DNA from: a virus
IMG/VR virus record: IMGVR_UViG_3300032163_000010
Location: 8,005-72,004 of that record
DNA: 64,000 nt
Direction: 5' to 3' (one strand)
A program made the translations under genes and the position numbers. Numbering within the stretch: the first letter of the stretch is position 1; each line of letters starts with the position of its first letter. Below are positions 2,170 to 45,565 of this stretch, piece by piece. The notes under the pieces are model-generated. The model was given only the letters and a program-made list of their open reading frames with translations, was not told where the DNA came from and did not search any database.

Positions 2170-2685
2170 CTATTTCTGACCTAATTCCTTGCCGAGGAAT
2201 GCAAGAACCTTCCCACGACAGTCCTCACACAAGTTTGACATGATGAATCCTTGTAACTGATTGATCTGATTCTGTTGGATCCTTAGTTCGACGATGTACT
2301 TGGTCTCGATATCACCGTTTAACTCTGCAATAGTCCGAGCTGATGAGCGAATTTCCTTAGCTAGATTTGTCGTTGGACCAATGAGGCTAATATCGAAGTC
2401 TCCTTCTGAATCGAGTTTTGTGAGCAGTCTATTCGCAATGTTGTTCATCCTATTAGCGAGATTCGTGAGAACACCCACACCATCGAGCGTTTTCTTCTCC
2501 ACTGCACAAATCGCGCCGTCAGAACCTGTGGCGACCCTTATATGTTCCTTGAGATGTTTCTCGAAGACCTCTCGATCCACGACGTTGAGTCTTGCCATGG
2601 CTTCGGTTACGGAGATCCTCCCTGCGAGAACGAGATTAACCGTGTCAAGATTCTGTGGGTTACTGCACACTGGGCAATCTACCAA
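2170..2685 (-). CDS. Putative terminase small subunit (CxxC N-terminus, helical)
   Basis: Immediately upstream of terL, 171 aa, HTH-like N-terminus followed by helical segments. Confidence 0.55.
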   Translation of the reverse strand: MVDCPVCSNPQNLDTVNLVLAGRISVTEAMARLNVVDREVFEKHLKEHIRVATGSDGAICAVEKKTLDGVGVLTNLANRMNNIANRLLTKLDSEGDFDISLIGPTTNLAKEIRSSARTIAELNGDIETKYIVELRIQQNQINQLQGFIMSNLCEDCRGKVLAFLGKELGQK

Positions 2686-2719
2686 ATGGGATCCCTCTAA
2701 GGAGGATAAGAGCCTCAGG

Positions 2720-2735
2720 GTATTTAAAAACTTCG
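2720..2735 (-). promoter_or_regulatory. BRE-TATA promoter of the packaging operon
   Basis: Minus strand reads CGAAGTTTTTAAATAC about 35 nt upstream of the terS start; matches other promoters in the window. Confidence 0.7.
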
Positions 2736-3000
2736 TCCCTCAAACTGAGAATTTCTATGATTGGGCTTGTGGGCTTGTGACTTCGTCCGTCGAACTTAGT
2801 GGGGTAATCATGAGGAACTGAGCTGCAGACAACTGGATTCCTCGACGGGACAAATTTTGACACGGTGAATTAGTCAGTGAGCGATAGGTTTTGGGAAGGT
2901 GACGGGTTTTAACTAGGGTGCATCATGTAATAATGAGGATCATCAATAGGGATCAGGGTGTGAGGTCATAGATAGAGACCCTCAATAGAGATCCTCAAGA

Positions 3001-3065
3001 GCATAGATAAATAGCGTAGATAAATAGCATAGATAAAGAGTATAGATAAAGAGTATAGAGAAAGA
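3001..3065. repeat. 5 x 13-bp tandem repeat
   Basis: gcatagataaata gcgtagataaata gcatagataaaga gtatagataaaga gtatagagaaaga. Confidence 0.85.
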
Positions 3066-3084
3066 GAGAGTAAGTGAGAAAGAA

Positions 3085-3444
3085 ATGAGAACAGCAACAG
3101 CAGCCAGAAACTCTGTATCGCAAGTAGATACAGAAAAAGAGTACATCGTTTCTCTAGATAGAGAGACGACAGCAACTATCTCTGCGGTTGAGAAGTCTCA
3201 ACTCCAGAGAAGTCAGATATCTATAGATGGAAAGGTTCCTTGGATGACATCAATTCTACCAAGAATAAGAGGAGAGAAACTAACAGTGTGGAGATTATAT
3301 GTCTCTATACAGCATACCTACGGAGAAAACAGCATCAGTCGAATGAGAGTATATAAATACCTCAATTCACTAGTTACAAAGAAGATTGCAACGAAAGAGT
3401 TCGATGTATACCAAGGAGCAGATGTCTACACGATAGATAAGTAG
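3085..3444 (+). CDS. Small winged-helix-like protein, paralog 1
   Basis: ISRMRVYKYLNSLVTKKIA helix plus wing; closely similar to 3765-4115. Confidence 0.7.
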   Translation: MRTATAARNSVSQVDTEKEYIVSLDRETTATISAVEKSQLQRSQISIDGKVPWMTSILPRIRGEKLTVWRLYVSIQHTYGENSISRMRVYKYLNSLVTKKIATKEFDVYQGADVYTIDK

Positions 3445-3562
3445 AACAAGTAGATTAGGTAAGTCTACATCCACTCGTTTTTTAGAGACAGCAAGAGCTG
3501 ATAGATCAAGGATCTAGATGAGGCACAGATAGAGAGAGAGACGATGAGGAGGTGAGAGAGAG

Positions 3563-3631
3563 ATGAAGTACGGAGTAGAACTAGCAGAAGTACAGCTTCC
3601 GGTTAGAGAACCGAAAGTTCGGAAGAAATAG
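3563..3631 (+). CDS. Possible 22-aa microprotein
   Basis: GGAGGTGA RBS then MKYGVELAEVQLPVREPKVRKK. Confidence 0.4.
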   Translation: MKYGVELAEVQLPVREPKVRKK

Positions 3632-3666
3632 ATACACGAAGAGTGTATATCGATAGAGGATCACGA

Positions 3667-3698
3667 TTTTTTAGGAATATACGCGAGATGATGCGTAT
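3667..3698 (+). promoter_or_regulatory. U-tract/AGGA/GAGATGAT-loop hairpin, copy 1
   Basis: tttttt agga at atacgc GAGATGAT gcgtat. Confidence 0.7.
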
Positions 3699-3764
3699 GA
3701 ATAGATAGAGAGCCGATAGATGAAGAATCTAGATGAGGCACAGATAGAGAGAGTAGTGAGAGAA

Positions 3765-4115
3765 ATGACAGCAAGGAAAGCATCCCAGAATACTGTAGGT
3801 AGTGTACCTACAGACCAGGTAGAGATAGTCTCTCTAGATAGAGAGACTCAAGCAACGATATCTGCAGTTGAGAGAACTCAACTCCAGAGAGGTTCGGTAG
3901 ACGGCAAGATTCCGTGGAGCAAGATTCTACCGAAGTTGAAAGGCGAGAGAGTCTCGGTATACAGACTGTATACGTCTGTACAGCGAGTCTACGGAGCGGG
4001 TAGCATCAGTCGGATGAGATGCTATAAATACCTCAACGGACTCGTGACCAAGAACCTCGCAACGGTAGAATTCGACGTTTTCAACGGAGAGAACGTCTAC
4101 ATCGTTGCTAAGTAA
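3765..4115 (+). CDS. Small winged-helix-like protein, paralog 2
   Basis: Shares IVSLDRETxATISAVE and ISRMRxYKYLNxLVTK with 3085; start moved to ATG 3765 by analogy. Confidence 0.7.
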   Translation: MTARKASQNTVGSVPTDQVEIVSLDRETQATISAVERTQLQRGSVDGKIPWSKILPKLKGERVSVYRLYTSVQRVYGAGSISRMRCYKYLNGLVTKNLATVEFDVFNGENVYIVAK

Positions 4116-4137
4116 GCCGAACAGGCTTACATCAACA

Positions 4138-4172
4138 TTTTCTTGAGGAATGTGTTCGAGATGATGAACATA
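4138..4172 (+). promoter_or_regulatory. U-tract/AGGA/GAGATGAT-loop hairpin, copy 2
   Basis: ttttcttg agga a tgtgttc GAGATGAT gaacata. Confidence 0.7.
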
Positions 4173-4185
4173 ACTAGAGAGAGAG

Positions 4186-4320
4186 ATGAGTAACATGCAG
4201 CCAAATGTATGTCTAGCAACAAGAGAAGACTGTAAGGTTTGTCGGAAGACATGGGGAACATCTCCGTGTCAAGTCGCGCCTGCGATAGCGAACGGTAAAG
4301 TCGCTATACTGCTATCGTAG
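4186..4320 (+). CDS. Cys-rich 44-aa microprotein
   Basis: MSNMQPNVCLATREDCKVCRKTWGTSPCQ..., follows hairpin copy 2. Confidence 0.4.
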   Translation: MSNMQPNVCLATREDCKVCRKTWGTSPCQVAPAIANGKVAILLS

Positions 4321-4710
4321 ACAAGCCTTGTAGGTATCCTCGGAGACGAGGCATCGATCCCCGTTTTTTATACTACTCGATCTACGGATTCCGTATCGCT
4401 AGATCCAAGATGAGCGAGTATTCGTTATCCGTTCTATAGCTCTATCGATACTAGATATCCGCAGGAAGGATTTTCGATACCACCGGAGGAGCGAGATGCG
4501 GTCCTTAGAACTTCTCGATCTTCTCGTGAGGGATCTCGATTCGGACTTGACATCGTCCAGTCCAAAAACTCTCTATATGTTAAAAGTGGTTATGATGATG
4601 ACTACTACTATGACTCCAACATCATCATCTCAAGTTCAAGTTCTTTCTTTGAACGAACGACTTCCATACACAACATATCACCTGAAACTTAAGGGACGTC
4701 CTACCGGTCA

Positions 4711-4725
4711 TAAGTTTTATATAGT
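4711..4725 (+). promoter_or_regulatory. BRE-TATA promoter
   Basis: TAAGTTTTATATAGT, near-identical to 9213-9228. Confidence 0.7.
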
Positions 4726-4855
4726 TAATCTACGATATCTTATCGATATACATTATCGAGAGAGTTAGATGAGGGAAACTAGAGAACGATCGTCTCTAGA
4801 GGCCATCGATCTAAGCCTGGTCGACGCGTCGACGACAAGTAAGAGAGTGAAAGAA

Positions 4856-5092
4856 ATGGAAACCAAAGACGAAGAAATGAATCTGTATAGCTACACGGCT
4901 GATATGTATCAGGATCTGTTTGATATGATCACTGAATACATGGGAGAAGCGGAGCATATCAGCGAAGACAACGTACGGATTAAGGTGAGCGATCTACCAT
5001 CATCGGTAGAAGCGATGAAAGAACTGAGGAAGAAGTTACTCAGAAAGGATTTCATCGCGTACTGGCAGATCGCGATAGAGGAAGGCAACTAA
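4856..5092 (+). CDS. Hypothetical acidic protein
   Basis: ATG after GAGTGAAAGAA, same context as neighbouring starts. Confidence 0.6.
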   Translation: METKDEEMNLYSYTADMYQDLFDMITEYMGEAEHISEDNVRIKVSDLPSSVEAMKELRKKLLRKDFIAYWQIAIEEGN

Positions 5093-5093
5093 G

Positions 5094-5125
5094 TTTTTAA
5101 GGACTCTCAGCGAGATGATGCTGAG
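5094..5125 (+). promoter_or_regulatory. U-tract/AGGA/GAGATGAT-loop hairpin, copy 3
   Basis: ttttta agga ct ctcagc GAGATGAT gctgag. Confidence 0.7.
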
Positions 5126-5148
5126 CGAAAGAACGGAGAGAACGAGAG

Positions 5149-8100
5149 ATGAAGAAAGTCTTGGATATCGGAATACCTCTACGAAGAGGCATCGACGATG
5201 CTCTCCATTGTGGAGAGCAAATAGAGAAAGATCTGCAACTACGGCCGAGAGACGCTGGTTGCGGATTCGGCTTCCGAGATATGCAGATCCCAATAGGTGA
5301 CAAGGACGAGAAGAAGATCGTTGAAGAGGTCAAGACGATCCTCCGAAAGTGTCACTTAATCAAGGGATCTTACGTCTCGGTATATGATGAAGATGAGGAG
5401 GTGAACTAGATGAAGGAAGACACGAAGATCTTGCTGATTGCAGATGCTGTGTTAGAGAAATGGACGAGTGGGAGCTACGAGGGCGTAGTTGAGAATTCAG
5501 ATGTGATATACTGCAACGATGAGGAGCTCCCTGCGGATGATGTATGGAGCATGCTGCAATCAAACGACAAATTGATTGAGAGGCTCTCCGATGGGTTAAT
5601 TGAGACAATCAGGGAGCAAGTAAGAAAAGAATTCGCTCCTAGAGTGATAGTAAATATCGGCCCTGGAGATTCAGAGGACGAAGTAGAGCTGTTCTTTGAA
5701 GATCAAGAGGAGAAACATCCGAAAAAGTGAAAGAACGATGTACGAAGTAAGGCAAGATCAGTTGAATGTTCTAGACAAGAACATTCTGAATAGGAAGAAT
5801 GCTATAGTAATAGCAAAGATCAGACATGCAGAGCAACCGGGGTCTTATCATGAAGTGCATGAGACTGGTATCGGAGGAGTCTACCAGTTGAAACCGAATG
5901 AAGACCTTCGCGGGGTGCCAGTGTGGGATGATGGATGTACACATTGGAACCTCGCAGAGGAGATAGAGAGAATATTAAGTAAGTGAAAAGAGAGATGTCT
6001 GAGAGACCGAACAAGGTAGTGTACATGAAGATTCTCGTCGCTGTTAAGGCGAACGAGAAGCAAGTTACCCCAGAGTGGTTCAAGGCCATCCTGGCGGACA
6101 TTGAGGAATGCTTCGACGATCAGTTCGAAGCGAAAGCATTACTCAAGGGGTTCGATATAGAACATATAAGGAGGTGAACAAGATGGAGAGAGATGAATTG
6201 AGCGAATTAGAGAAAGAGTTGGAGAATGCGATGGATAATCTAGACATCGTAATACGAAAGTTCGAAGACCAGAACGAAGCTGTGGAGAGAGTCTACAGCT
6301 GGTTAGACTGCAGGAGGAAGTGAAAGAAAGATGAAGAAAGTCGTTTGGACGATCGCCTTCGATATCTTCGAAGGAGACGAGGAGAATCCATCGACGGATG
6401 GATGTTTCATCAACCCTGGGCAACTGGGAGATGAACTGAGGAAGAAACTCGAGGAGAGAATCCACGAGTTAGTAGAGAAAGGAGAGTACGAGGCATAGAA
6501 AATGTCTGTAGAGATAAAGAACGGTATGGAGTATACTAGGTATACAGAGAAAGGCACTGGCACACGCAAGTGGAAAGTCGGTCAACGGATAGAAACGGAG
6601 TTCGTCACGAAGGCTCAGAAGGCCACTGGGAAATGGATAGACTACGAACCTATCCAACGGAGGAAGCAACAGGCAACGATAGTCGCCATCACGGTTAGGA
6701 AGAATCCTCCGTATAGGGATGTCTGGTTCAAGTTAGACTTCGTCGACGGATTTGGTTTCTGGACAACGAACGTCCACAGGGTTACAAGATATATATAGGA
6801 GGTGAGAACGAATGAGCTATCGTTTCAAATGGTGGGCTGGAGCGATCTGGGCGGGGATAACAACGGTCGTCTTGGTCTGGTTGTTTGACCAGATATTCAG
6901 CATCTTCTAGAGGTAAGGTAACATGCCTGAAAGAAATGCCAAGGAAATAGAATTTGACAGGCAGTTGCTTGTCAAGCTAAAGGACCTGCGGGATTTTTAC
7001 CGCATCGAGGGTATGAGAGATGCTCTCTACTTCGAGGTAGTGAGCAAGATTGGGTATCTAGAAAGAAGAGAGTGAGAAGAAATGAGACAAGGAAAAGGAT
7101 GGAAGTTCAGCGCACCTAGCTGGGAGTTACAGATAGACAAGATATCAGATAAGGAGCTGGGGGAGCTGTACGACACATTCGTAGGCTACTCGGATGACAT
7201 GATCGTTGTCAGAGAAAGCCTAAAGAAAGAAATAGAACGGAGGGAGGTGAAGACGAACGAAAGTCACGACAACTGAGATAGACACCAAAGACAGGGAAGG
7301 AAATGACAATCCAACGGAGTCCGTTGTGAGAGATAGGATGACCGCGGTGACTGAGGAACTAGGTTGGGATATTCTAATCACCGAGGTAGAGGAAACAAAG
7401 AAGGGGTTCCTATTCAAGGTAGAAATAGAGATCCCTGTGGAGGTGATAAGAAAATGAAAATACAGATAATAGTCCTGACGGAACAACAGAAGAATTTCCT
7501 TGAATCAGATGCTGATCTTGGTGACATCGATCACTGGTTGGAGACCCAAACAAAGACTGCGCCAGTAGTGGAAGTTTTCGTCAGAGAAGAAGGCACAGCG
7601 AAGGAATCCGTCTGGGGATTGTCCCCAGCAGGGGTCAATGCCATCGAGAGAGAAATTGAAGATGTCATCGTGACAGAGCAAGAGATGAACGCAGAGGAGG
7701 AAGAGAACCATGAGTCAGATCCAAAAACAAGTTGATGACCAGATTAACGGCAAGATCTGGATATGCAAGAACGACCAATGTGCCAAGGGTTGTGATTCAC
7801 ACCCTTGCCTGATAGAACATAATATGATGGAGGTGATAAGAAAATGAGTGAGCAACCAGCACTGAAACTTAGTCTGACGGTAACGTTAGACGTGAAGTTC
7901 TGTGAGCAGGATTTCGAAGGAGCGAATAAGACCTGGGAGGAATGGAAGTCATTGATCACAGGTAACAAGAAGGAGGCTATAGAGACGTTCCTGGGAAATC
8001 TAGACTATGATGGAATGGATAACATCATAGCTGAGGTGATAGATGCCGGAGGTGAGTTAAAGCTCACTGAAGGAACGTATGATGACAAGACAAGGAGGTG

Positions 8101-9212: not shown

Positions 9213-9228
9213 CGAAAGTTTTATATAG
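9213..9228 (+). promoter_or_regulatory. BRE-TATA promoter
   Basis: CGAAAGTTTTATATAG. Confidence 0.8.
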
Positions 9229-26204: not shown

Positions 26205-26220
26205 CGAAAGTTTTATATAT
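26205..26220 (+). promoter_or_regulatory. BRE-TATA promoter of the replication operon
   Basis: CGAAAGTTTTATATAT. Confidence 0.8.
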
Positions 26221-29654: not shown

Positions 29655-29867
29655 ATGAGCGCTGGCAAGATAATATCCTGCTGGGATCTGATGGAAGAAG
29701 CAGCAAAGACGATGATCTCACAATCACAGGAGCTTGTCAACGAACACCTGAAAGTCATCAGGAACCTGAATATGATTATCGAGCGATGCGAAAAGACGAA
29801 ATCACTTGAAGAACAGATTAGGGAAAAGGATAAACAAATACAGGATCTCAAAAACAACGAGGGATGA
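29655..29867 (+). CDS. Coiled-coil hypothetical protein
   Basis: GGAGG RBS; heptad pattern. Confidence 0.55.
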   Translation: MSAGKIISCWDLMEEAAKTMISQSQELVNEHLKVIRNLNMIIERCEKTKSLEEQIREKDKQIQDLKNNEG

Positions 29868-32800
29868 TAATGACGATTAAAACTGACTTGATGAATACAG
29901 ACTACGTCGAGGAGGACAATAAGCCATGCTTATGGTGGTTCCTCAGGGATGTAGAAGGGAAGAGGGTCAAAAGAAAGTTCTCTTGGGTCAAGCCACACGC
30001 GTGGAACAACGATCCGAGCTCAGGGCCGGCGACCAAGGATATATTTGGACGCACGGTATATGAGTGGACGACAAGGATGCCTTCGGAAATAGGCGGAGGG
30101 CGAGACAGATATTCGATGACATGCGAGGCAGATGTTCTGTTTCCAATGAGGGCTATGATAGACTTGGACGTCTACTGTGGGGTAGAGATTGCAGAGGATA
30201 ATTCGATCAAGGCAGTAGAAAATCACGGAATCCCACCGGTATATTCGTTGTTTGATTTTGAGTACTTTTCACCGAAAGAGATTATGCCAATGCCAGGAGA
30301 TCCGAAGTGGCCTGCGGTTACAGTACAATGGGGTCTCACGTCGGACAATATTATACATGTTATCGTACTGAATTTCGTGAGCCAGACACAAGCTCCTGCA
30401 GGGATCTTAACTGAGAAGTTGATCGCTGAATCGATTATACGGAAATTCATCTGGGAGAACTTCAAATCGATCACTGTCCATATCGAGCTCAAGGATGAGA
30501 AAACTGGCAAGTGGCTCATTGAACCGCAGGATCTCACGTATCCGGTAGAGGTAACCATCGTTGAGGATGAGAGGGATCTATTCATCAAGTTCGCTGAATG
30601 GCATGAGTCGGCCGATGTAGATGGCTGGGCAGGATATAACTCTAATAACTATGATTGGCCTATGTACTTTCGTCGAGCCGATCGATTGGGTATCAGTTGG
30701 CTGGTCGCTCAACACATTAGCCCGTTGCATCGGGCATCAGCTAGGTTCAATCAACAATATAAGAAATGGGATGTCCATATATGGGGTCAGACGATTACTG
30801 ACCTGAATGAGATTTACAAAAAGTACATCAAACCCTCCGGAGAGCGAACGTCCTATGATTTCAAAATCGTTGTCAAAGACGAGTGTGGGTTCGCATATGA
30901 TGACCTTGGAGCGTTCATTAAAACAACTTACGAGAATGACCCACAAGCTTTGATCGAGTACGCTGCCAAAGACGTCATAGCATTGAAATTGTTGAATGAG
31001 AAGTGCGATTTGCTTCCTTACATTGATGTGTTGAGGCGAGTCGCGGGGACTCCGTTTGACAAAGCCACTTCGAACAAGGCCCTCATCGATACAATGTGTC
31101 TGAGACTTGCAGATGCCCCGTTGCCAACTGGAATCAAACATTTGAAGACCAAGAAGGCAACTGGTGCGTTGGTCATCATGCCCGAAGTAGGGCTGCATGA
31201 ATGGGTCATATTGCTTGATCTCAAGTCAATCTATCCGACGATGATTATTGCATACAACCTAAGTCCGGAGTGTAAAGATCCTAACGGAGAGATTCAAATC
31301 CCAATCGTGGATGCATTTGGTCGCATAGTGGAGTACGTTGGATTCAGAAAGAGCCCTCAAGGAGTCCTCCCGAAGGTTGCCGCACACATGATGGTGCTGA
31401 GAGAACACTACCGCACGTTGGGACGAGAGATCGAGTCACAAGCGAACTTCGATAAACAATACAGAGAACGGATTAAATCTCAGGAAACCGTAGCGAAGTT
31501 CCTTGCGTGTGCAATTAATGGAGTCCTAGCTTATCCAGGGTTCAGATTATATGATCCTGAAGTATTCAACTGTGTCACATCGATCACGCGATCTGTGATT
31601 TGGAAGATCCGAGGGTTCCTTGAACCGAAGGGGTTCAAGACCATGTATGGAGACAGTGTCTCAGCAGATTCCCCGGTATTAATAAAGAGGGATAATGAAA
31701 TCGATATACTCCCGATAAGTGAATTAGCCCCGACCGCTGAGGGAAGATACGCATTAGATAATATTGAAGTATGGACGAGAAATGGGTTTAAACAAGGACA
31801 TTATGTTAAGGTCTCAAATCCTCATAAAACGATGTATAGAGTAAATACAATAGACGGAATTGTAGATGTAACTGAAGATCATTCATTGTTCGATCTAGAA
31901 GGAAAAGAAGTCAAACCAACAGAATTACCGAAAAGAATAGAAACGGTAGTATATCCTATAAGACTAGGACAAACAGAGATATCAGAAGATGAAGCTTGGT
32001 TGCTAGGATTGATTTGTGCCGAAGGAAGCCTTATAGGGAATAACGAACAACCAGTTATAAGTTGTGATGAAGATAAATTAAGATGGGCGAAAGAAATACT
32101 TGATGGAATGGGGTATGAATCATGGTTACATGATTACACTGAATCATCGAAGTGTTGGAGATTATGTGTATCGACTAAAGCGAGAGGTTTATTTAGGGAA
32201 TGCACAACAGGGTTATCTGGTTGGAAAGGAAGAAATAAGAAGGTTCCAAAACGAATCCTTAACTCCGGCAAGGATGCTATGATAGGGTTCTTAAGGGGGT
32301 TGTGGGCAGGAGACGCCCCAGTTGATCAGGGAAATTATATTGATGAGTTTAAGAGAATTGATTTACGGTCACAGTCATTAATAGTGGGGGTGGAATATAT
32401 AATGTATCAATTAGGATTCGTGACATCTTGGAGAAGTGCAGGATCAAACAAATTATCATATGGATTAAGAATAGGGAAAACCAAGAAGATTGCATCAGGG
32501 GTGGTAAGGGAAGTAAAAGAGATTCAATACAAAGATCTAGTGTACGATATCGGTACAAATGATGGAACGTTCGCTATAGGCAGGGTTGTAGCACACAACA
32601 CCGATTCGATCTTTATTAAACTGACCGCAACGAATAAAGAGGACGCAGCGAGGCAAGGTTTCGAGATCGAAACGATGGTTCAAGAATATATTACTGAATG
32701 GACGAGGTCCCTTGGAGCAACGTATCCGATAGATGTCAAGTTCGAACATTTGTTTGATCGGATTTTGTGGAAGAAAAGAGCCAAGGGAGATGACCCCGCG

Positions 32801-33379
32801 AAGAAGCACTACGGAGGTCACTATATCATGAAGGACGGTGCATGGAAGGAAGGGCTCAAGATCTCCGGATTGGCTCCTAAGTCATCGGCAAGTGCTTTGT
32901 TCACGAGGAAATTGACTAGTCAGTTCCTTGAGTTAGTTCTTGAGAAACATGACATCGATTCAGCAGTAATGATCGTGAGCCAAGCTTGGGAAGGGATCTT
33001 GCTGACCAAGGACGTTTCAACTATTGGGATTCCCAAGGGGTTACATCAAGTAGTGGCCGATCCAGAAGACGCTCACGGATCGACTAAGCCGTGGATCGAA
33101 GGGGTATTCCATGCAAAGAAGGTCTTTCAGTGGAGGTTTTCTGAAGATGACAAGCCTAAGTTGATTTATACGGTTCCTACAAAGGAGTTCCCATATAAGA
33201 CTCTATGTTTGAATGTTGATCAAACGACAATCCCTAAGGGGGTTCGGGTCGATTGGAACCTTCAACGGGAGAAGGTCATCAAGAACAAGTTTTTCGAACT
33301 ACTTGAAGCCATAGGTCGTGATTGGTCAGAGATCGAATTCAAAGTCCGCAAGACAAGGATGGATCAGTTCTTTGGTTAA
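29864..33379 (+). CDS. polB: Family B DNA polymerase with intein
   Basis: Exo FDFE, GYNSNNYDW; DLKSIYP; K...N..L; YGD|TDS split by an intein. Confidence 0.95.
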   Translation: MIMTIKTDLMNTDYVEEDNKPCLWWFLRDVEGKRVKRKFSWVKPHAWNNDPSSGPATKDIFGRTVYEWTTRMPSEIGGGRDRYSMTCEADVLFPMRAMIDLDVYCGVEIAEDNSIKAVENHGIPPVYSLFDFEYFSPKEIMPMPGDPKWPAVTVQWGLTSDNIIHVIVLNFVSQTQAPAGILTEKLIAESIIRKFIWENFKSITVHIELKDEKTGKWLIEPQDLTYPVEVTIVEDERDLFIKFAEWHESADVDGWAGYNSNNYDWPMYFRRADRLGISWLVAQHISPLHRASARFNQQYKKWDVHIWGQTITDLNEIYKKYIKPSGERTSYDFKIVVKDECGFAYDDLGAFIKTTYENDPQALIEYAAKDVIALKLLNEKCDLLPYIDVLRRVAGTPFDKATSNKALIDTMCLRLADAPLPTGIKHLKTKKATGALVIMPEVGLHEWVILLDLKSIYPTMIIAYNLSPECKDPNGEIQIPIVDAFGRIVEYVGFRKSPQGVLPKVAAHMMVLREHYRTLGREIESQANFDKQYRERIKSQETVAKFLACAINGVLAYPGFRLYDPEVFNCVTSITRSVIWKIRGFLEPKGFKTMYGDSVSADSPVLIKRDNEIDILPISELAPTAEGRYALDNIEVWTRNGFKQGHYVKVSNPHKTMYRVNTIDGIVDVTEDHSLFDLEGKEVKPTELPKRIETVVYPIRLGQTEISEDEAWLLGLICAEGSLIGNNEQPVISCDEDKLRWAKEILDGMGYESWLHDYTESSKCWRLCVSTKARGLFRECTTGLSGWKGRNKKVPKRILNSGKDAMIGFLRGLWAGDAPVDQGNYIDEFKRIDLRSQSLIVGVEYIMYQLGFVTSWRSAGSNKLSYGLRIGKTKKIASGVVREVKEIQYKDLVYDIGTNDGTFAIGRVVAHNTDSIFIKLTATNKEDAARQGFEIETMVQEYITEWTRSLGATYPIDVKFEHLFDRILWKKRAKGDDPAKKHYGGHYIMKDGAWKEGLKISGLAPKSSASALFTRKLTSQFLELVLEKHDIDSAVMIVSQAWEGILLTKDVSTIGIPKGLHQVVADPEDAHGSTKPWIEGVFHAKKVFQWRFSEDDKPKLIYTVPTKEFPYKTLCLNVDQTTIPKGVRVDWNLQREKVIKNKFFELLEAIGRDWSEIEFKVRKTRMDQFFG
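31655..32599 (+). mobile_element. Intein (315 aa) with LAGLIDADG-like endonuclease in PolB YGD/TDS
   Basis: Starts SVSADSPV, block B VTEDHS, LLGLICAEG and FLRGLWAGD, ends VAHN|T; visibly more AT-rich. Confidence 0.92.
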
Positions 33380-37331: not shown

Positions 37332-38023
37332 AGAAAAGACATTGAAGGAACGGGTCCTCTCAGAGTTATCGTTCAGAAATCATAAGGTCCTTATTAGGTG
37401 TGAGAGGGTTCCTCAGATGAGGGATGTTATTCTCAAGTGGACGAGCGACAGAAGTCCTATGGTAGTCAATGTCAACGTTCAACGATGTGGTCTAGTGGTA
37501 TTGTTCGCCACAGGTACGACATTGACTTTCGTAGTTAACGACGTAGGTGATACATCGAAGTATGACCTAGTCATTGACGAGCGTGAGAAAAATGAAGTGG
37601 AATGAGGTTCTGAAGGGGTCGCAAGATCCCGTTTTTTTCCTTCCTTCGTCAGGGGTGAAGAAACACGCACTGATAAAGGTTCCGACAGGGAGGAAAATCG
37701 ATATGGGAAAACTGAGAACTCTGATTGGAGTTCCAGTAGTACAAGTAACGGATATGAAGACTCTACCAGAAAGGATGAGAGACCAGCAAATATTGATAGT
37801 TCAGATAGACGATATTGGGATGTCTCAGGAAGTGTTGTCTGTTGGGCGAACACTGGATTCAGGGATGGTCTTGGTTAATACAACCATGGGTGAGATGTTC
37901 TATAATTCGTTTGCCATATTATGGGTCATCTATTCACAGGGAACCCCGTCTGAGGAACTCAAGAAGTCCTGTGTCGAAGTGGAGATATCCGAGGAGGAAG
38001 ATATATGGGAGGAAAAGCAATAG
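37303..38023 (+). other. Two hypothetical ORFs (37303-37605, about 37592-38023)
   Basis: Overlapping ORFs in operon. Confidence 0.55.
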
Positions 38024-38727
38024 CAATCTGTTCAGGTGGGCTCGATTCCACGGTGATGTTGTATGAGATGGTTCATCGGGGGATTGAGACAATAGTTCTA
38101 AGTTTCGATTACGGACAGAAGCACAAGATCGAACTTGATTACATCGAGAGAACAGCGAAGAAGTTAGGGTTGCTATGGATCTTAGAACGCATGCCTACGT
38201 TCTCAAGTGCCCTCACAAATCTCTCGGAGACTATCCCAATGACAGATTATGATGACAAAGCTCAGAGGGTTACGGTCGTACCGAATAGGAATATGATAAT
38301 GATTGCTATTGCCGCAGGATATGCGATACAAAATAAAGCAAGGGAAGTATGGTATGCAGCACATACGGGAGATCATGCGATATATCCGGATTGTAGAGAG
38401 GAGTTCGTGAGACCCTTGGCAGAGGCGTTGTATAAGGGAACGTATGAGAATATAATTCTAGTTGCTCCGTTCATCGACTTAACAAAGACGGATATAGTCT
38501 TGAGGGGAGCTCATCTAGGAGTGCCATTCCAAGATACATGGTCTTGTTATAGCCCAGTTGTGATGTATCAAGCTTATACGGTTAATATCCCGCAGAAAAT
38601 AGTCCTTTATCACTGTGGGCAATGTGGGACATGCAGAGAGAGGATCGAGGCGTTCAGAGAAGCGAGAGTCGCTGATCCAACTGCGTATATTAACACATGT
38701 GGAGTGGTAGTTAAAAATGTGTTATGA
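38005..38727 (+). CDS. queC: 7-cyano-7-deazaguanine synthase
   Basis: SGGLDS, FDYGQKH, VPNRN, YPDCR, TWSCY, CGQCGTC. Confidence 0.95.
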   Translation: MGGKAIAICSGGLDSTVMLYEMVHRGIETIVLSFDYGQKHKIELDYIERTAKKLGLLWILERMPTFSSALTNLSETIPMTDYDDKAQRVTVVPNRNMIMIAIAAGYAIQNKAREVWYAAHTGDHAIYPDCREEFVRPLAEALYKGTYENIILVAPFIDLTKTDIVLRGAHLGVPFQDTWSCYSPVVMYQAYTVNIPQKIVLYHCGQCGTCRERIEAFREARVADPTAYINTCGVVVKNVL

Positions 38728-39703: not shown

Positions 39704-40614
39704 CGAGGAAACTTTTGTTAATCGGTTTTCCTGATTTCCAAGAGAATCAGGTTAGGAAAATCTATGATATCATCGAGAAAGCGGTACAAGAATACACTGG
39801 AGATCCGACGTGGTACGCGAAACTTGCACCTGGTGGAGAGACTACAGACATTACGTTAGACGACTTAAAAGAAATCGTCCGACAGATGGAATCAGGTGAA
39901 GACACAACTCACCCACGGGTAACTGGAACGTACTTTGAGGATACACTAGTGTCAGTGACACTTACTGACAAGAAGGGAGCTGGTTCTTCAGAAGAATACC
40001 ATGAGGAGTTCATCAAGATGGTGGATCTTCCCGAAGATGTTAGAGAACTGGTTTCAACGGCTTTATTGAAAGCATTAGCGGGTAGAAAGACGGTGGTTAT
40101 ATGAATCGCAAACTTAGGTTCATATTGTTCTCTGGCATTGGATGCACAGCCCTCATCTTGGCAGTAGTAGTGCACAATCCTGACTTAGTCAATGTATTGA
40201 TTGCAATAGGAGCTACAATCCTCGCATGGGATGCGGTGTTCATAATAGGGGATGGGATACGCGATGAGTAGAGTAAAAGTTCCTGCGTTTGACCCAAGTA
40301 AGGTGATAATCAAAGAAACCCATGAAGGAGACAAGCTTCGCCTAGAGGCAGCTGTGAGCATCGTTGTAGTTAGTGATATAGATAAAATTGTAATCGCAAC
40401 CAACCCAGAGGTTATTGAGCACCAGAAGCACAGAATAAGAGATGCACTTGAAGTGGGTTTCATAGATTCATTCGTCGGGTACCTTAAGAGTCGAGGACAG
40501 CAGTTCTCTAAGTTCCCGGTGCCACAGAAGGTCTTTGTTGTCAGAGAGGACCTTCAGGAAGATATTATAATAATGTCAGCGAAAAGATATGCCGAGGAGG
40601 TAAAGAAGAGATGA
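39700..40614 (+). other. Hypothetical ORFs 39700-40104, about 40101-40271 (membrane) and about 40264-40614
   Basis: Coupled ORFs between queD and queE. Confidence 0.55.
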
Positions 40615-41309
40615 TCAGCATTGTTGAGGTATTTAGATCAATCCAAGGAGAGGGCCTCTATATAGGGCATCCCGCGATCTTCGTCCGAACCCACGGATGC
40701 AATCTCTCGTGTGACTTCTGTGACACGAAGTACGCGTGGTATACGAACAAAGGGGAAGGTTACAGGGAAGTCGATCAGAAAGAACTTGTGAAAGAAATAG
40801 AAGAACTGAACCAGGAGAAGGACATCATCGTACTGACAGGAGGAGAACCGATGATCTGGCAGGATCAACTAGGGGAGATTGTTAAAAAATTCCCTATACA
40901 TGTGGAAACTAATGGCACGATTCACGCAAATCTATTGATGAAGAGATATGTTAAGCATTTTACTGTGTCACCGAAGGAGTGGAATAAGATGAGCACAGTA
41001 AGTGATGTTGAATGGTGGATCAAGGAGCTCAATACAAAAGTAGCACTGAAATTCGTTATAACTACTGAAGGGGACGTCGAGGAGATATCCGAGACGTTTA
41101 GTTTACGTAAGGCGAAAGATGTCATTCTGCAACCGGAGAGATATGCGGCAACACAGGCAGGTGATCAGCCCTGGATAACACCGCAAGGGTTGTACTTGAA
41201 GCGATTATTGGAGATAGTTGGATGGGCTAATCAGTATCTCAATGGAGTCAATTGGCGAGTTCTCCCACAATTGCACTATCTCTTGTGGGGAAATAGGAAG
41301 GGAATTTGA
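40611..41309 (+). CDS. queE: 7-carboxy-7-deazaguanine synthase (radical SAM)
   Basis: SIQGEG, CNLSCDFCDT, TGGEP, VETNG, VSPK, PQLH. Confidence 0.95.
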   Translation: MISIVEVFRSIQGEGLYIGHPAIFVRTHGCNLSCDFCDTKYAWYTNKGEGYREVDQKELVKEIEELNQEKDIIVLTGGEPMIWQDQLGEIVKKFPIHVETNGTIHANLLMKRYVKHFTVSPKEWNKMSTVSDVEWWIKELNTKVALKFVITTEGDVEEISETFSLRKAKDVILQPERYAATQAGDQPWITPQGLYLKRLLEIVGWANQYLNGVNWRVLPQLHYLLWGNRKGI

Positions 41310-41310
41310 A

Positions 41311-41967
41311 ATGGTAAAAAGAAACGTTTGTGCACCGGAAGATGTCATCGAACGAAGTGAGGAACATACTCCTCATCACTTTGTTCTGAGTAACAAGGAT
41401 GAGATTATGGATAAGTTCCGAGAAATCTTGTCACTGGCGGGGTTCAATCCTGAGTCAGCCCCGATGAAGAGGACTCCTGAGAGACAATGGGAGGTTCTCC
41501 GAACTTTGACTGAAGGGTATGTTATCGATCCGACTCTCGACCGGATGTATAGAGACTATGCTTTAGGAGACCTTGCTGGCGTAAGGATCTGTCCAGGGAT
41601 CCATTTCGTTTCTTGGTGTGAACACCATCTGATGCCATTCCATGGCACTGTAGACATCGCCTATGTTCCTGGTAACGGCAAAGTCACTGGGTTATCGAAA
41701 CTTCCTCAACTAGTGCAGAAGTACGCCCGGAGACCTCAATTACAAGAGAAAATGGTTAGCCAGATCGCTGATGAATTAATGACTCGCTGTGAGGCCATCG
41801 GAGTAATGGTCATCGCTTCTGGCTACCACACTTGTGAGATGATCGAGGGAATTCACGAGGGGTTCCATCGAGATAAGCCTTATATCACTCCAGAGATTAG
41901 GGGATTGTTTGTAGCAAATGTGGCACTCAAGGATGAAGTTCTCTCGCACTTGGCGAGGTTGACATAA
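41311..41967 (+). CDS. folE: GTP cyclohydrolase I
   Basis: TPER, CEHHLMPF, GLSKL, RPQLQE, HTC. Confidence 0.93.
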   Translation: MVKRNVCAPEDVIERSEEHTPHHFVLSNKDEIMDKFREILSLAGFNPESAPMKRTPERQWEVLRTLTEGYVIDPTLDRMYRDYALGDLAGVRICPGIHFVSWCEHHLMPFHGTVDIAYVPGNGKVTGLSKLPQLVQKYARRPQLQEKMVSQIADELMTRCEAIGVMVIASGYHTCEMIEGIHEGFHRDKPYITPEIRGLFVANVALKDEVLSHLARLT

Positions 41968-42397: not shown

Positions 42398-43045
42398 ATG
42401 ATTTACGTCGATAGCCGTGAGCCTGCCGAAGTGATGCAGAGAGTCTGGGATAGGAAGATATCTCATATAGTGAAGAAACTCGAGGTGGCGGATTTTCAAA
42501 ATGAAAAAGAAACGGCGTTTATCGAAAGGAAGAAACCAGAAGACATCTGGGGAAGAGTCCTCAATAAGAACAACGGATGGGATGATCAAATGGGGAGGCT
42601 CTCTGAATATGCTTATGCACATAATGCCATGCCTTGGCTCATCGTTGAAGGGAGCTTTGATGCCGCTATACGCCGCACCAACGGGAAGATCCATGTCGAT
42701 GAGACTCGAGGAGCGATTGTCAGCGCTGCTGTTAGGTATGGAATCGCGGTCTGGAATGCCGACTCGTTGGATGACCTCCTCACCGTGGTCTGTGCTATCT
42801 GCGACAAAGCAGATAGAGAACTAGGAGTTCCAAGGAGATTACCATTCTCTCACTTAGCTATGGATAAACGCGCAGCAATCTTGATGAACGTGTGTCATGT
42901 AAGTTCGAGACAAGCCGAGTCGTTGTTGAATTACTTTGGATCAGTTAGAAATGTGTTGTTAGCTTCAGAAGATCAACTAGCGATTGTGAATAATGTTGGG
43001 AGGATAACTGCGAGAAAGATATGCCAGTATAAGGACTCGGTGTGA
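42398..43045 (+). CDS. ERCC4/XPF-family nuclease with HhH domain
   Basis: VDSRE, AD, IERK...D, LIVEG, FGSV.NV..AS..L..V..VG. Confidence 0.9.
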   Translation: MIYVDSREPAEVMQRVWDRKISHIVKKLEVADFQNEKETAFIERKKPEDIWGRVLNKNNGWDDQMGRLSEYAYAHNAMPWLIVEGSFDAAIRRTNGKIHVDETRGAIVSAAVRYGIAVWNADSLDDLLTVVCAICDKADRELGVPRRLPFSHLAMDKRAAILMNVCHVSSRQAESLLNYFGSVRNVLLASEDQLAIVNNVGRITARKICQYKDSV

Positions 43046-45105: not shown

Positions 45106-45565
45106 AAAGGGTACAATGTTAAGTCTGGACGAAGACCTCGTCGAGCAGGCGAAGAGCCTAAACATCAACATGTCGAATGTGATGAACACGACATTGCAGT
45201 ACTTGATCGAGGGGTCTTCCCTACAACCGGTCAGGACGGATTTGTTGCTGACCACGCAGGACATAAAGAGGGTCAGAGATGCTATAGATGAGAGGGTGTT
45301 AGAACTCGAGGGGCTGAAATATAGACTCGAGCAATTGTTGTTGTTAGAAACGGAACTATCCATACGGCTCGCTGCCGCTGATAGAGATACTGCGTTGGCT
45401 AAGGGATTCGAGCAACTACGGTCGATGATAGTAACTCGAGTCTCCAACGACGAGATTCTCAAATCGGCGACAGTGGGGGATATGAATAAGCTATTGAATA
45501 TGGTTATAGATAACGAGTGGCTCGATAGCTATAGAGGAAGTGTAATGAAGAATGAACAAGTATAG
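45098..45565 (+). CDS. RHH (CcdA/VapB-like) protein with coiled coil
   Basis: TMLSLDEDLVEQAKSLNINMS. Confidence 0.65.
   Translation: MGKKGTMLSLDEDLVEQAKSLNINMSNVMNTTLQYLIEGSSLQPVRTDLLLTTQDIKRVRDAIDERVLELEGLKYRLEQLLLLETELSIRLAAADRDTALAKGFEQLRSMIVTRVSNDEILKSATVGDMNKLLNMVIDNEWLDSYRGSVMKNEQV

What the first reader, a model, noticed from the sequence alone, without database searches (positions are those of the whole stretch)
3667..5125. Three covarying hairpins with an invariant GAGATGAT loop placed right after U-tracts
Seen: at 3667-3698, 4138-4172 and 5094-5125 the layout is T-tract, AGGA, exactly 8 nt, GAGATGAT. Stems differ in sequence but all pair (atacgc/gcgtat, tgtgttc/gaacata, ctcagc/gctgag) and close with C-G; one G-U pair hints at RNA. 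Each lies between early genes. Known: archaeal termination uses U-tracts with aCPSF1/FttA cleavage; lambda boxB and N4 hairpin promoters are loop-specific hairpins. Inference: an undescribed antitermination, processing or 5'-protection element, or a hairpin promoter, possibly read by the neighbouring wHTH proteins.
Basis: partly seen in the sequence, partly recalled or inferred. Interest (0 to 1): 0.85.

Follow-up and report, generated by a model that had tools for sequence, protein, structure and literature searches.

The report
Covarying octaloop hairpins between viral early genes
An uncultivated tailed virus, probably of methanogenic archaea, carries three copies of a small folded signal between its early genes: a hairpin whose stem letters change in matched pairs while its eight-letter loop never changes; it most likely marks the RNA for a regulatory protein, though its function is untested.

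Summary
AGGA-N8-GAGATGAT occurs exactly three times (3673, 4146, 5100), against 0.011 expected by composition. Each copy is a 6-7 bp hairpin with the loop GAGATGAT, the only 8-nt loop seen three times among about 1,000 hairpins in the 72-kb genome.

A related virus (terminase 76% identical; L274, L009) has two more copies with new stems and the same loop. Across the five distinct copies, 6 of 7 pairs change on both sides and 94% of cells pair; 0 of 500 shuffles reach this. RNAalifold finds the same helix. A strain contig changes two stem bases, and both changes keep pairing. Wobble pairs occur only on the gene-sense strand.

A conserved 5' box, ATTTnTT(G)ARGAAT, belongs to the element. In the relative this box is not a pure T-tract. 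No further copies turned up in 98 distant relatives, an untruncated IMG/VR scan, 151 methanogen genomes or Rfam.

Best reading (about 0.4): a sense-strand RNA operator bound by a virus-encoded factor that controls the downstream early cistron. Rivals are a promoter module like the HF2 intergenic repeats (0.2) and a nut-like read-through signal (0.13). No RNA data exist, so function is inferred. The scan noted similar hairpin families in other archaeal viruses.

The parts
3666..3699 (+). Element 1: 5' box ATTTTTTAGGAAT (3666-3678), stem 3679-3684/3693-3698 plus T3678.G3699, loop GAGATGAT 3685-3692
   Evidence: 46.2 bits, E 8e-8
4137..4172 (+). Element 2: 5' box ATTTTCTTGAGGAAT (4137-4151), 7-bp stem 4151-4157/4166-4172 with G4152.T4171, loop 4158-4165
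   Evidence: 51.1 bits. Strain contig of run X2: 4168 A>G and 4171 T>C, both keep pairing
5093..5125 (+). Element 3: 5' box GTTTTTAAGGACT (5093-5105), stem 5106-5111/5120-5125, loop 5112-5119
   Evidence: 47.0 bits
3563..3631 (+). Small ORF s1 (22 codons, strong GGAGGTGA ribosome-binding site) upstream of element 1. It is the positional counterpart of the 23-24-codon ORFs upstream of both elements in L274
   Evidence: The homology of s1 to the L274 peptides is weak (shared MK.YEL start only)
3720..4115 (+). Winged-helix paralogue 2, downstream of element 1. The first in-frame ATG is 3720, but the ATG at 3765 aligns with the starts of the paralogues
4186..4320 (+). 44-aa Cys-rich ORF downstream of element 2 (13 nt after the stem)
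   Evidence: no PHROG match
4769..5092 (+). 107-aa ORF upstream of element 3, served by the canonical BRE/TATA promoter at 4710-4723
5149..5409 (+). 86-aa ORF downstream of element 3 (23 nt after the stem). Its homologue in L274 (1796-2071, - strand) has no element in front
3085..3444 (+). Winged-helix paralogue 1, first gene of the region; no element upstream
3478..3483 (+). T6 run after paralogue 1, without an element: a T-run that stands alone
4364..4369 (+). T6 run after the 44-aa ORF, without an element
3709..3753 (+). 45-nt leader repeat, 93% identical to 3494-3538, between element 1 and the probable true start of paralogue 2
   Evidence: family D2

Best explanation
The element is a roughly 42-nt cis-acting RNA motif read on the sense strand of read-through or polycistronic early transcripts. 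It has a single-stranded 5' box (AUUUnUU(G)ARGAAU) followed by a 6-7 bp hairpin whose only job is to display the invariant octaloop GAGAUGAU, usually closed by C-G. A sequence-specific trans-acting factor binds the loop and the 5' box. This factor is most likely a virus-encoded early protein. The winged-helix paralogues encoded directly downstream of 4 of the 6 copies seen are the obvious candidates, which would make the circuit autoregulatory. Binding would set the translation and/or stability of the cistron that starts 13-28 nt downstream (65 nt if the start of paralogue 2 is 3765), so three early genes would form one post-transcriptional regulon. Shown: the motif, its recurrence, stem covariation, strand asymmetry and position. 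Inferred: that it acts as RNA, that a protein reads it, which protein, and the regulatory outcome.
For: 1) Selection for pairing, not sequence. Across five distinct copies from two virus species, 6 of 7 pairs change on both sides and 94.3% of 35 cells pair. 0 of 500 shuffles reach this, and slid registers give 34-57%. RNAalifold predicts the same helix on its own. 2) The loop is 8 of 8 invariant in all five copies, and GAAT (GACT in one copy) lies 5' of the stem. Invariant loop bases on a free-to-vary stem are the pattern of loop-reading proteins. 3) Strand asymmetry: two wobble cells (U.G, G.U) on the + strand and none that would be a wobble on the - strand. A strain contig changes A-U to G.U and G.U to G-C in the 3' arm of site 2. 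4) All copies are co-oriented with the flanking genes and lie in intercistronic gaps. 5) Read-through RNA carrying the hairpin is plausible. The small ORF at 3563 has no TATA-like box between the T6 run at 3478 and its start, so it must be expressed by read-through. Single U4-tract terminators in a methanogen have a median efficiency of only 43% (bioRxiv 10.1101/2021.05.26.445813, passages). 6) A DNA-level hairpin is a poor alternative: 6-7 bp stems with an 8-nt loop are weak, at -7 to -9.5 kcal/mol even as RNA. 7) In longer contexts the hairpin stays in the minimum-energy fold in 4 of 5 copies. At sites 1 and 2 the U-tract pairs with the purine-rich ribosome-binding tract before the ATG, z -2.8 and -3.4, which links the motif to translation initiation. 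8) Precedent: the T4 gp43 operator is a short hairpin with conserved loop bases upstream of the ribosome-binding site (PMC3014915, passages).
Against: No RNA data exist, so transcription across both arms is inferred. Only five distinct copies from two related viruses (plus one strain variant) are known, so the covariation rests on few independent events. Single hairpins are not significantly stable. In L274 copy b an alternative fold beats the hairpin. The hairpin-to-ATG distance varies from 13 to 28 nt, and is 65 nt for paralogue 2 if its true start is 3765. That is far for steric repression. No known RNA-binding domain was found in any neighbouring protein. The winged-helix model resembles DNA-binding regulators, at weak E-values. 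The fixed spacing between the T-rich box and the loop also fits promoter geometry (see rival 1).
Confidence: 0.4

Rival explanations
1. Promoter module. The T-rich box is a weak TATA box, and GAGATGAT is a conserved promoter-proximal or initiator motif. Transcription would start at about the first base of the 3' arm. The element would then be an internal, regulated early promoter, like the class I intergenic repeats of halovirus HF2.
For: In HF2, seven 58-bp intergenic repeats carry promoters. Their TATA box begins at -26, and a conserved motif around the start site is essential for activity (PMC8707807, Results and Discussion read). Here the first T of the box lies 26 nt before the base that follows the loop at sites 1 and 3, and 28 nt at site 2. 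That base is G after T in 4 of 5 copies, a pyrimidine-purine initiator. The whole conserved unit is promoter-sized at 42 nt. The resulting 5' UTRs of 20-33 nt would carry the purine-rich ribosome-binding tracts. Every early gene here ends with a T-run, so downstream genes might need their own promoter.
Against: This reading does not explain why positions about -14 to -9 must be complementary to +1 to +6, which is the strongest signal in the data. None of the 6 boxes is preceded by the GAAAG-type BRE that precedes the three canonical TTTATATA promoters of this genome. Two boxes (TTTTCTTG, TTTGTTGA) have G or C inside the core and would be poor TBP sites. The sense-strand-only wobble pairs have no meaning for double-stranded DNA.
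Confidence: 0.2
2. Nut-like read-through signal. A viral factor bound to the nascent hairpin (5' box plus loop, as in boxA plus boxB) modifies the host RNA polymerase, or blocks the termination factor aCPSF1/FttA. Polymerase then passes the oligo-T terminators that follow each early gene.
For: 4 of the 17 T-runs of 5 or more on the + strand between 2.6 and 47.5 kb lie within 3478-5098, each just after a gene. The region therefore looks organised around leaky terminators. The bipartite layout, a single-stranded box plus a hairpin with a fixed loop, resembles boxA-boxB (recalled). aCPSF1 recognises U-tracts in the nascent RNA, and here the hairpin abuts that tract.
Against: In the related virus the box is TTTGTT or TTTATT and no T-run of 5 or more precedes either copy. 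Adjacency to a terminator is therefore not conserved. No T-run of 5 or more follows element 3 until 6994. No antitermination system is known in archaea or their viruses in the papers listed by my searches (listings only). No arginine-rich N-like protein was looked for.
Confidence: 0.13
3. Processing or punctuation site. A host or viral endonuclease cuts in the U-rich box, as RNase III does between phage T7 early genes. The hairpin is left as a protective 5' cap on the downstream message.
For: The position is intercistronic, and a U-rich single strand next to a stem is a common endonuclease context (recalled). Earlier notes of this scan describe gene-punctuating hairpin families in other uncultivated archaeal viruses (these are leads, not evidence).
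Against: A protective hairpin needs no invariant loop. The stems are far shorter than RNase III substrates. Only 3 of the many gene junctions in this genome carry the element.
Confidence: 0.1
4. Mobile regulatory cassette or recombination hotspot, as proposed for the PeSL elements of T4-type phages. The shared unit would mediate shuffling of early genes. This can coexist with any of the readings above.
For: Gene order around elements 2 and 3 differs from L274. There the homologues of the 4769 and 5149 genes are not adjacent and neither has an element. Five of the 53 differences between L274 and L009 cluster in 14 nt at the 5' edge of the element. PeSLs are composite terminator/promoter stem-loops in plastic regions (PMC4122927, abstract and passages).
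Against: Nearly every junction in this fast-evolving region is a synteny break, so the coincidence is weak. PeSL stems are conserved in sequence, whereas here they are not. Three copies are few for a shuffling system.
Confidence: 0.07
5. Start-site mimic or upstream ORF. The loop GAG-AUG-AU copies the initiation context favoured by this virus (gagAUGa) and is one mismatch from the extended Shine-Dalgarno sequence GAGGUGAU. It would load ribosomes onto a tiny uORF or act as a decoy.
For: Real starts at 3563, 4186 and 5149 read GAGAUGA. The uORFs that open at the loop AUG end between 11 nt before and 15 nt after the main start codon in 4 of 5 copies (read).
Against: The peptides are unrelated, and the uORF runs 61 codons at site 3. 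Stop codons are frequent in these purine-rich leaders anyway. No variant with a perfect Shine-Dalgarno sequence was seen among the five copies.
Confidence: 0.05

Closest known systems
Translational operator of phage T4/RB69 DNA polymerase gp43, and coat-protein or RegA-type operators generally
   Same: A short hairpin upstream of the ribosome-binding site of a viral early gene. Loop bases are conserved and recognised by a viral protein, and the circuit is autoregulatory (PMC3014915, passages).
   Different: gp43 has one operator for one gene, and here three genes share one motif. The loop sequence, the 5' box and the host domain (archaeal) differ. Binding is untested here.
Class I intergenic repeats of halovirus HF2 (promoter modules)
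   Same: Repeated, promoter-sized conserved units between genes of a tailed archaeal virus. They have a T/A-rich box about 26 nt before a second conserved motif (PMC8707807, Results and Discussion).
   Different: The HF2 repeats are conserved in sequence throughout, have a BRE, and have mapped start sites. They show no covarying stem. There is no sequence similarity to the present element.
Lambda nut sites (boxA + boxB); recalled, not read here
   Same: A bipartite RNA signal in early operons: a single-stranded box followed by a small hairpin whose loop is read by a viral protein.
   Different: boxB has a 5-nt GNRA-like loop and a fixed stem. No boxA consensus, N-like protein or archaeal Nus-type mechanism is known here.
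PeSL (promoter-early stem-loop) cassettes of T4-type phages
   Same: Small composite regulatory units at junctions of accessory early genes in plastic regions (PMC4122927).
   Different: PeSLs combine a sigma-70 promoter with a terminator-like stem of conserved sequence, and many copies occur per genome. Here the T-rich box precedes the hairpin, the stems vary and the loop is fixed.
RNase III sites between phage T7 early genes, and N4 hairpin promoters (both recalled)
   Same: A handful of hairpins punctuate an early region (T7). N4 has three early-region hairpins with specific loop recognition.
   Different: T7 sites are long duplexes with internal loops. N4 hairpins have 3-nt loops, act as single-stranded DNA and need a virion RNA polymerase; none of the 35 proteins of this virus that I scanned matches a polymerase family.

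Membership tests
Any Rfam family (release 15) | Covariance-model match at or near the gathering score | tested here: not met
   window 2600-6200 at E up to 10: 4 noise hits (E 4.7-9). The only one touching an element is sR1 (C/D box) at 3684-3738, 12.6 bits against a gathering score of 45.
Archaeal C/D box sRNA / K-turn | Box C RUGAUGA together with box D CUGA | tested here: not met
   AUGAUGA is present in 2 of 5 copies (site 2, L274 a). There is no CUGA within 60 nt downstream at sites 1 or 2.
Intrinsic (bacterial-type) terminator | G+C-rich hairpin followed directly by a T-run | tested here: not met
   The T-rich box precedes the hairpin. On the - strand an A-run follows. The terminator scan found 7 against 7.6 +/- 3.4 expected, none at the elements.
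Lambda-type nut site | boxB: 5-bp stem with a GNRA-like pentaloop | tested here: not met
   The loop is 8 nt, GAGAUGAU.
Lambda-type nut site | Lies between an early promoter and downstream terminators, and an N-like protein is encoded | tested here: inconclusive
   T-runs follow elements 1 and 2 (4138, 4364), but none of 5 or more follows element 3 until 6994. No N-like protein was searched for.
N4-type hairpin promoter | 5-7 bp stem with a 3-nt loop, read as single-stranded DNA by a virion RNA polymerase | tested here: not met
   Stem length fits but the loop is 8 nt. No RNA-polymerase Pfam family appears among the 35 proteins of this virus that I scanned. The proteome was not scanned completely.
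Archaeal BRE/TATA promoter (as in HF2 class I repeats) | TATA box about 26 nt upstream of a purine start, preceded by a purine-rich BRE | tested here: inconclusive
   The spacing fits (26-28 nt from the first T to the base after the loop). 0 of 6 boxes has the GAAAG/TAAG BRE of the three canonical promoters, and 2 boxes have G or C in the core.
Archaeal BRE/TATA promoter (as in HF2 class I repeats) | Promoter activity and a mapped start site | not testable with these tools
   No RNA run holds the sequence.
PeSL cassette | Host-type promoter consensus joined to a stem-loop of conserved sequence, many copies in plastic regions | tested here: not met
   The stems are not conserved in sequence. 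The sigma-70 scan is at background, 15 against 14.0 +/- 3.8. Only 3 copies exist.
Protein-binding RNA operator hairpin (functional class, not a homology family) | Covarying stem, invariant loop, sense orientation close to a start codon | tested here: met
Protein-binding RNA operator hairpin (functional class, not a homology family) | Loop-dependent binding of a protein and an effect on expression | not testable with these tools
   Needs EMSA and reporter assays.

The most novel reading that the evidence does not exclude
The three hairpins are the recognition sites of the first RNA-based transcription read-through (antitermination-like) system of an archaeal virus. A virus-encoded winged-helix protein binds the GAGAUGAU loop and 5' box on the nascent RNA. 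It then lets the host RNA polymerase, or the RNA behind it, escape the oligo-U/aCPSF1 termination that follows every early gene. That would give lambda-like temporal control in archaea.
Probability: 0.12. Interest if true: 0.85.

Novelty: new variant of a known kind. Interest (0 to 1): 0.5.

Why it matters
Gene regulation in archaeal tailed viruses is known almost only at the level of promoters and DNA-binding repressors. In the papers my searches listed, I saw no RNA operator, nut-like site or intercistronic processing hairpin described for an archaeal virus (listings and abstracts only). This element is small, sharply defined and backed by covariation. It offers a directly testable handle: one 42-nt RNA, one invariant loop and a short list of candidate binders. 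With it one can ask whether archaeal viruses use post-transcriptional or elongation-level control of early genes, as phages T4, T7 and lambda do. The scan's earlier notes suggest that covarying junction hairpins recur in several unrelated uncultivated archaeal viruses, so a shared principle may be involved. The caveat is that the family is tiny, two related viruses, and no function has been shown.

Tried and rejected
Searches for more members:
- Three IUPAC scans of IMG/VR. One search gave 88 stretches. One search gave 68 stretches and was complete. Apart from the L009 contig, no hit has a stem of 4 bp or more next to the full box-loop pattern.
- Terminase-based locus searches in viral, metagenome and genome collections. 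Only L009/L275, L274, L276 and L277 are close, and the last two are too short to reach the early region.
- Protein searches with the winged-helix gene and with a conserved early gene gave no further usable loci.
- The covariance model R1 found nothing in 98 distant loci. It found only 3 chance-level hits (25-30 bits) in 151 genomes of a methanogen order.

Expression: no RNA holder is listed for the region. Only DNA contigs could be laid.

Ideas rejected:
- C/D box or K-turn: no box D.
- K-loop geometry: does not fit.
- CRISPR-repeat mimic: ATTGAAG occurs only in the relative and on the wrong side of the hairpin.
- Kissing partner: the single antisense copy of the loop (ATCATCTC at 4624-4631) is not conserved in L274.
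- Anti-Shine-Dalgarno pairing of the loop: one central mismatch is invariant.
- A TATA box upstream that would put the start site at the foot of the hairpin: only site 1 has a TATAT there.
- Chance: excluded.

Supplementary files of the papers were not consulted. HF2 figure alignments were not visible, so I know the HF2 repeat sequences only from the text.
Full report
WHAT IS THERE

The window is bases 8005-72004 of a 72,004-bp IMG/VR virus record that CheckV rates complete. At 3666-3699, 4137-4172 and 5093-5125 the + strand reads as follows: a T-rich box (TTTTTT, TTTTCTT-G, TTTTT-A), then AGGAAT (AGGACT at site 3), then a 6-7 bp stem, the loop GAGATGAT, and the complementary arm.

AGGA-N8-GAGATGAT occurs exactly three times. 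About 0.011 exact matches are expected from base composition. With one mismatch allowed there are 5 matches, and 0 of 100 shuffles reach 5.

The octamer itself is not enriched: 11 copies against 6.1 +/- 2.6 expected. In a scan of the whole genome for 8-nt-loop hairpins with stems of 5 bp or more (527 on the + strand, 469 on the - strand), GAGATGAT is the only loop that occurs three times.

Each hairpin alone is weak, at -7.2 to -9.5 kcal/mol with z -0.8 to -1.5. The case therefore rests on recurrence and covariation.

RELATIVES AND COVARIATION

A terminase search found one close viral contig, L009 (identical record L275), at 76% identity. It also found one metagenome contig of a near-identical strain, L274. 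All the other 60-odd loci per collection are at 34% identity or less, except two short fragments, L276 and L277.

L274 carries two copies on its - strand, at 4300-4258 and 3090-3048. L009 carries the first of these and ends before the place of the second.

Their stems are new (CTCTC/GAGAG and CTCCGA/TCGGAG). The loop is unchanged. In one copy the closing pair is A-U.

Aligning the five distinct copies gives the consensus cgATTTnTT(G)ARGAAT-[stem]-GAGATGAT-[stem']. On this alignment:
- 6 of 7 pairs show changes on both sides;
- 94.3% of 35 cells pair;
- 0 of 500 shuffles reach the observed covariation;
- sliding the 3' partner by 1-3 columns drops pairing to 34-57%.

RNAalifold predicts the same helix unaided.

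A strain contig from another sequencing run (X2, depth about 5) covers site 2. It differs at 4168 (A>G) and 4171 (T>C). The first turns a U-A pair into U.G and the second turns the G.U pair into G-C. One low-depth contig is weak evidence, but both changes keep the helix.

All wobble cells (three, counting the variant) lie on the + strand. None of the unpaired cells would be a wobble on the - strand.

HOW FAR THE FAMILY REACHES

A covariance model (R1) finds exactly 3 copies in the whole 72-kb record and 1 in the 53-kb relative, at 46-55 bits. It finds nothing at E up to 1 in 98 loci around distant terminase relatives.

It gives three hits of 25-30 bits in 151 genomes of a methanogen order. That is the number expected by chance at per-genome E values of 0.008-0.09.

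An untruncated IMG/VR scan for TTGARGAAT-N6-GAGATGAT gave 68 stretches. Among the 48 distinct contexts held, only the three from L274 and L009 fold; the other 45 have stems of 3 bp or less.

Rfam has nothing. A full-text search for the octamer found no paper.

CONTEXT

The virus is tailed and has terminase, tail proteins and a family B polymerase with an intein. Several lines point to an archaeal host:
- Its RFC-like clamp loader matches haloarchaeal tailed viruses best, at 3e-38.
- It encodes an ERCC4/XPF-HhH nuclease.
- Sigma-70 promoters and intrinsic terminators are at background.
- Three sites share a textbook archaeal BRE/TATA, (G/T)AAAGTTTTATATA, at 4716, 9220 and 26212.
- The only genomic relatives of its terminase (26-29% identity) lie in Methanoregulaceae and Methanocellaceae MAG chromosomes.

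An archaeal, possibly methanogen, host is therefore likely but not shown.

The hairpin region is a run of short + strand genes next to the divergent terminase genes. Every gene from 3085 to 5092 is followed by a T-run. Four of the 17 T-runs of 5 or more on the + strand between 2.6 and 47.5 kb lie in 3478-5098, and the TTTTCTT at 4138 adds a fifth T-rich tract. Two T6 runs (3478, 4364) have no element.

In the relative, both copies sit between a 23-24-codon ORF and a gene of the same protein family as 3085 and 3720. The two small ORFs differ at 12 of 22 aligned codons, 9 of them synonymously, so the peptide is real.

Site 1 of this window has the same layout: small ORF 3563-3631, then the element, then paralogue 2. 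Counting L009's copy, 4 of the 6 copies seen precede a gene of this family.

That family has no Pfam match. An AlphaFold model built on 8 paralogues gives a confident C-terminal domain (residues 62-131, block pLDDT 74-94) with helix-strand-helix-helix-strand-strand order. Foldseek's best matches are ArsR/SmtB, Fur, MarR and PadR winged-helix regulators, but the best E is 0.014 and none reaches 0.001. 'Winged helix' is therefore plausible, not proven.

One correction concerns the gene map. A 45-nt leader segment (3494-3538) is repeated at 3709-3753 with 93% identity. The ATG at 3765 aligns with the paralogues' starts. The stem-to-start distance at site 1 is therefore 20 nt for ATG 3720, or 65 nt if the true start is 3765. 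At the other copies it is 13, 23, 22 and 27 nt.

WHAT IT MOST LIKELY IS

Selection has kept the two arms complementary while letting their sequence drift. It has frozen eight loop bases and a 5' flank.

That pattern means a folded single strand whose loop is read sequence-specifically. The sense-strand wobble pairs and the co-orientation with the genes point to RNA. A DNA cruciform with 6-7 bp arms and an 8-nt loop would be very unfavourable.

Read-through RNA that carries the hairpin is expected. The small ORF at 3563 has no TATA-like box after the T6 run at 3478. In Methanococcus maripaludis, terminators with one U4 tract have a median efficiency of 43% (bioRxiv 10.1101/2021.05.26.445813, passages).

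Longer folds keep the hairpin in 4 of 5 copies. At sites 1 and 2 the U-tract pairs with the purine-rich tract just before the start codon, z -2.8 and -3.4. U-rich and AG-rich runs will pair in any prediction, so I treat this only as a hint of a link to translation initiation.

My best reading, at about 0.4, is an RNA operator. A virus-encoded early protein binds the loop and the 5' box and sets the translation or stability of the next cistron. The adjacent winged-helix paralogues are the first candidates. The closest worked example is the T4/RB69 gp43 operator, a short hairpin with conserved loop bases upstream of the ribosome-binding site (PMC3014915, passages).

RIVALS

Promoter module (0.2). 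This is the strongest rival. In halovirus HF2 the repeated intergenic units are promoters, with a TATA box beginning at -26 and an essential conserved motif at the start site (PMC8707807, Results and Discussion). Here the first T of the box lies 26 nt before the base after the loop at sites 1 and 3. That base is a G after a T in 4 of 5 copies. However, this model does not explain the arm complementarity. None of the six boxes has the BRE of the canonical promoters. Two boxes carry G or C in the core.

Nut-like read-through signal (0.13). This fits the dense T-runs and the bipartite layout. However, in the relative the box is TTTGTT or TTTATT, so adjacency to a true terminator is not conserved.

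The remaining rivals are a processing or 5'-protection site (0.1), a PeSL-like shuffling cassette (0.07; PMC4122927) and a start-site mimic or uORF (0.05). Each has some support and clear weaknesses, given in their own sections.

An N4-type hairpin promoter is unlikely. The loop is 8 nt, not 3, and none of the 35 proteins of this virus that I scanned against Pfam matches an RNA polymerase family.

NOVELTY AND VERDICT

The element matches no catalogued RNA family and no motif in the searchable literature. My searches listed no paper that describes an RNA operator, nut-like site or processing hairpin in an archaeal virus (listings and abstracts only).

It is a new variant of a known kind, the viral intercistronic regulatory hairpin.

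Earlier notes of this scan report other covarying junction hairpins in unrelated uncultivated archaeal viruses. I did not test those, but they suggest the theme is recurrent.

Interest is moderate (0.5). The decisive data, transcript ends and mutational tests, have to come from the bench.

Noticed in passing
window 4710-4723, 9214-9227, 26206-26219: Three near-identical canonical archaeal promoters, (G/T)AAAGTTTTATATA. TTTWTATA occurs 10 times against 3.8 expected. They probably head the main early and middle operons.
   Followed up: partly
window 3478-5098: Every short gene in this 1.6-kb stretch is followed by a T-run. Four of the 17 + strand T-runs of 5 or more in 45 kb lie here, and several are preceded by a small hairpin 8-18 nt upstream. 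The region looks like a chain of leaky terminators.
   Followed up: partly
window 3494-3538 and 3709-3753 (also 3022-3066, 62%): A 45-nt direct repeat (93% identity) rich in TAGATAGAGAG lies in the leaders of three consecutive genes. It may be an operator array for the winged-helix proteins. The ATG at 3720 lies inside it.
   Followed up: partly
L274 4339-4413 and 3129-3200 (- strand); window 3563-3631: Small 22-24-codon ORFs with very strong GGAGGTGA ribosome-binding sites lie directly upstream of the element. The two L274 copies differ by 9 synonymous and 3 non-synonymous codons, so the peptide (..YELGECHPK.NSSVVI..) is under purifying selection.
   Followed up: partly
window 3461-3547: In the probable source run (X1), one contig replaces these 85 bases with 368 other letters. 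This is a structural polymorphism between paralogue 1 and the small ORF.
   Followed up: no
window 4321-4768; L274 3260-3700: A roughly 450-nt AT-rich stretch with no convincing ORF is conserved in part between the two viruses (shared CTACTACTATGA). It lies just upstream of a BRE/TATA promoter, and the L009 contig ends inside it. It also holds the only antisense copy of the loop octamer (4624-4631), which is not conserved in L274.
   Followed up: partly
window 29864-33379 and 43042-45105: The family B DNA polymerase and a second 687-aa ORF both carry LAGLIDADG/Hint intein signatures.
   Followed up: no
window 38005-38727, 40611-41309, 41218-41967: QueC, a radical-SAM (QueE-like) enzyme and GTP cyclohydrolase I are present, consistent with a 7-deazaguanine DNA-modification pathway. 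There is also an ERCC4/XPF-HhH nuclease at 42398-43045 and a CcdA-like N-terminus at 45098-45565.
   Followed up: no
L458, L459: The only genomic relatives of the terminase (26-29% identity) lie inside chromosomes of Methanoregulaceae and Methanocellaceae MAGs. They are probably proviruses and hint at the host range of this virus group.
   Followed up: partly
L274 4293-4306 vs L009: Five of the 53 differences between the two strains cluster in 14 nt at the 5' edge of the element. Another 26 differences lie in 4600-4800. This looks like patchy, mosaic divergence.
   Followed up: no
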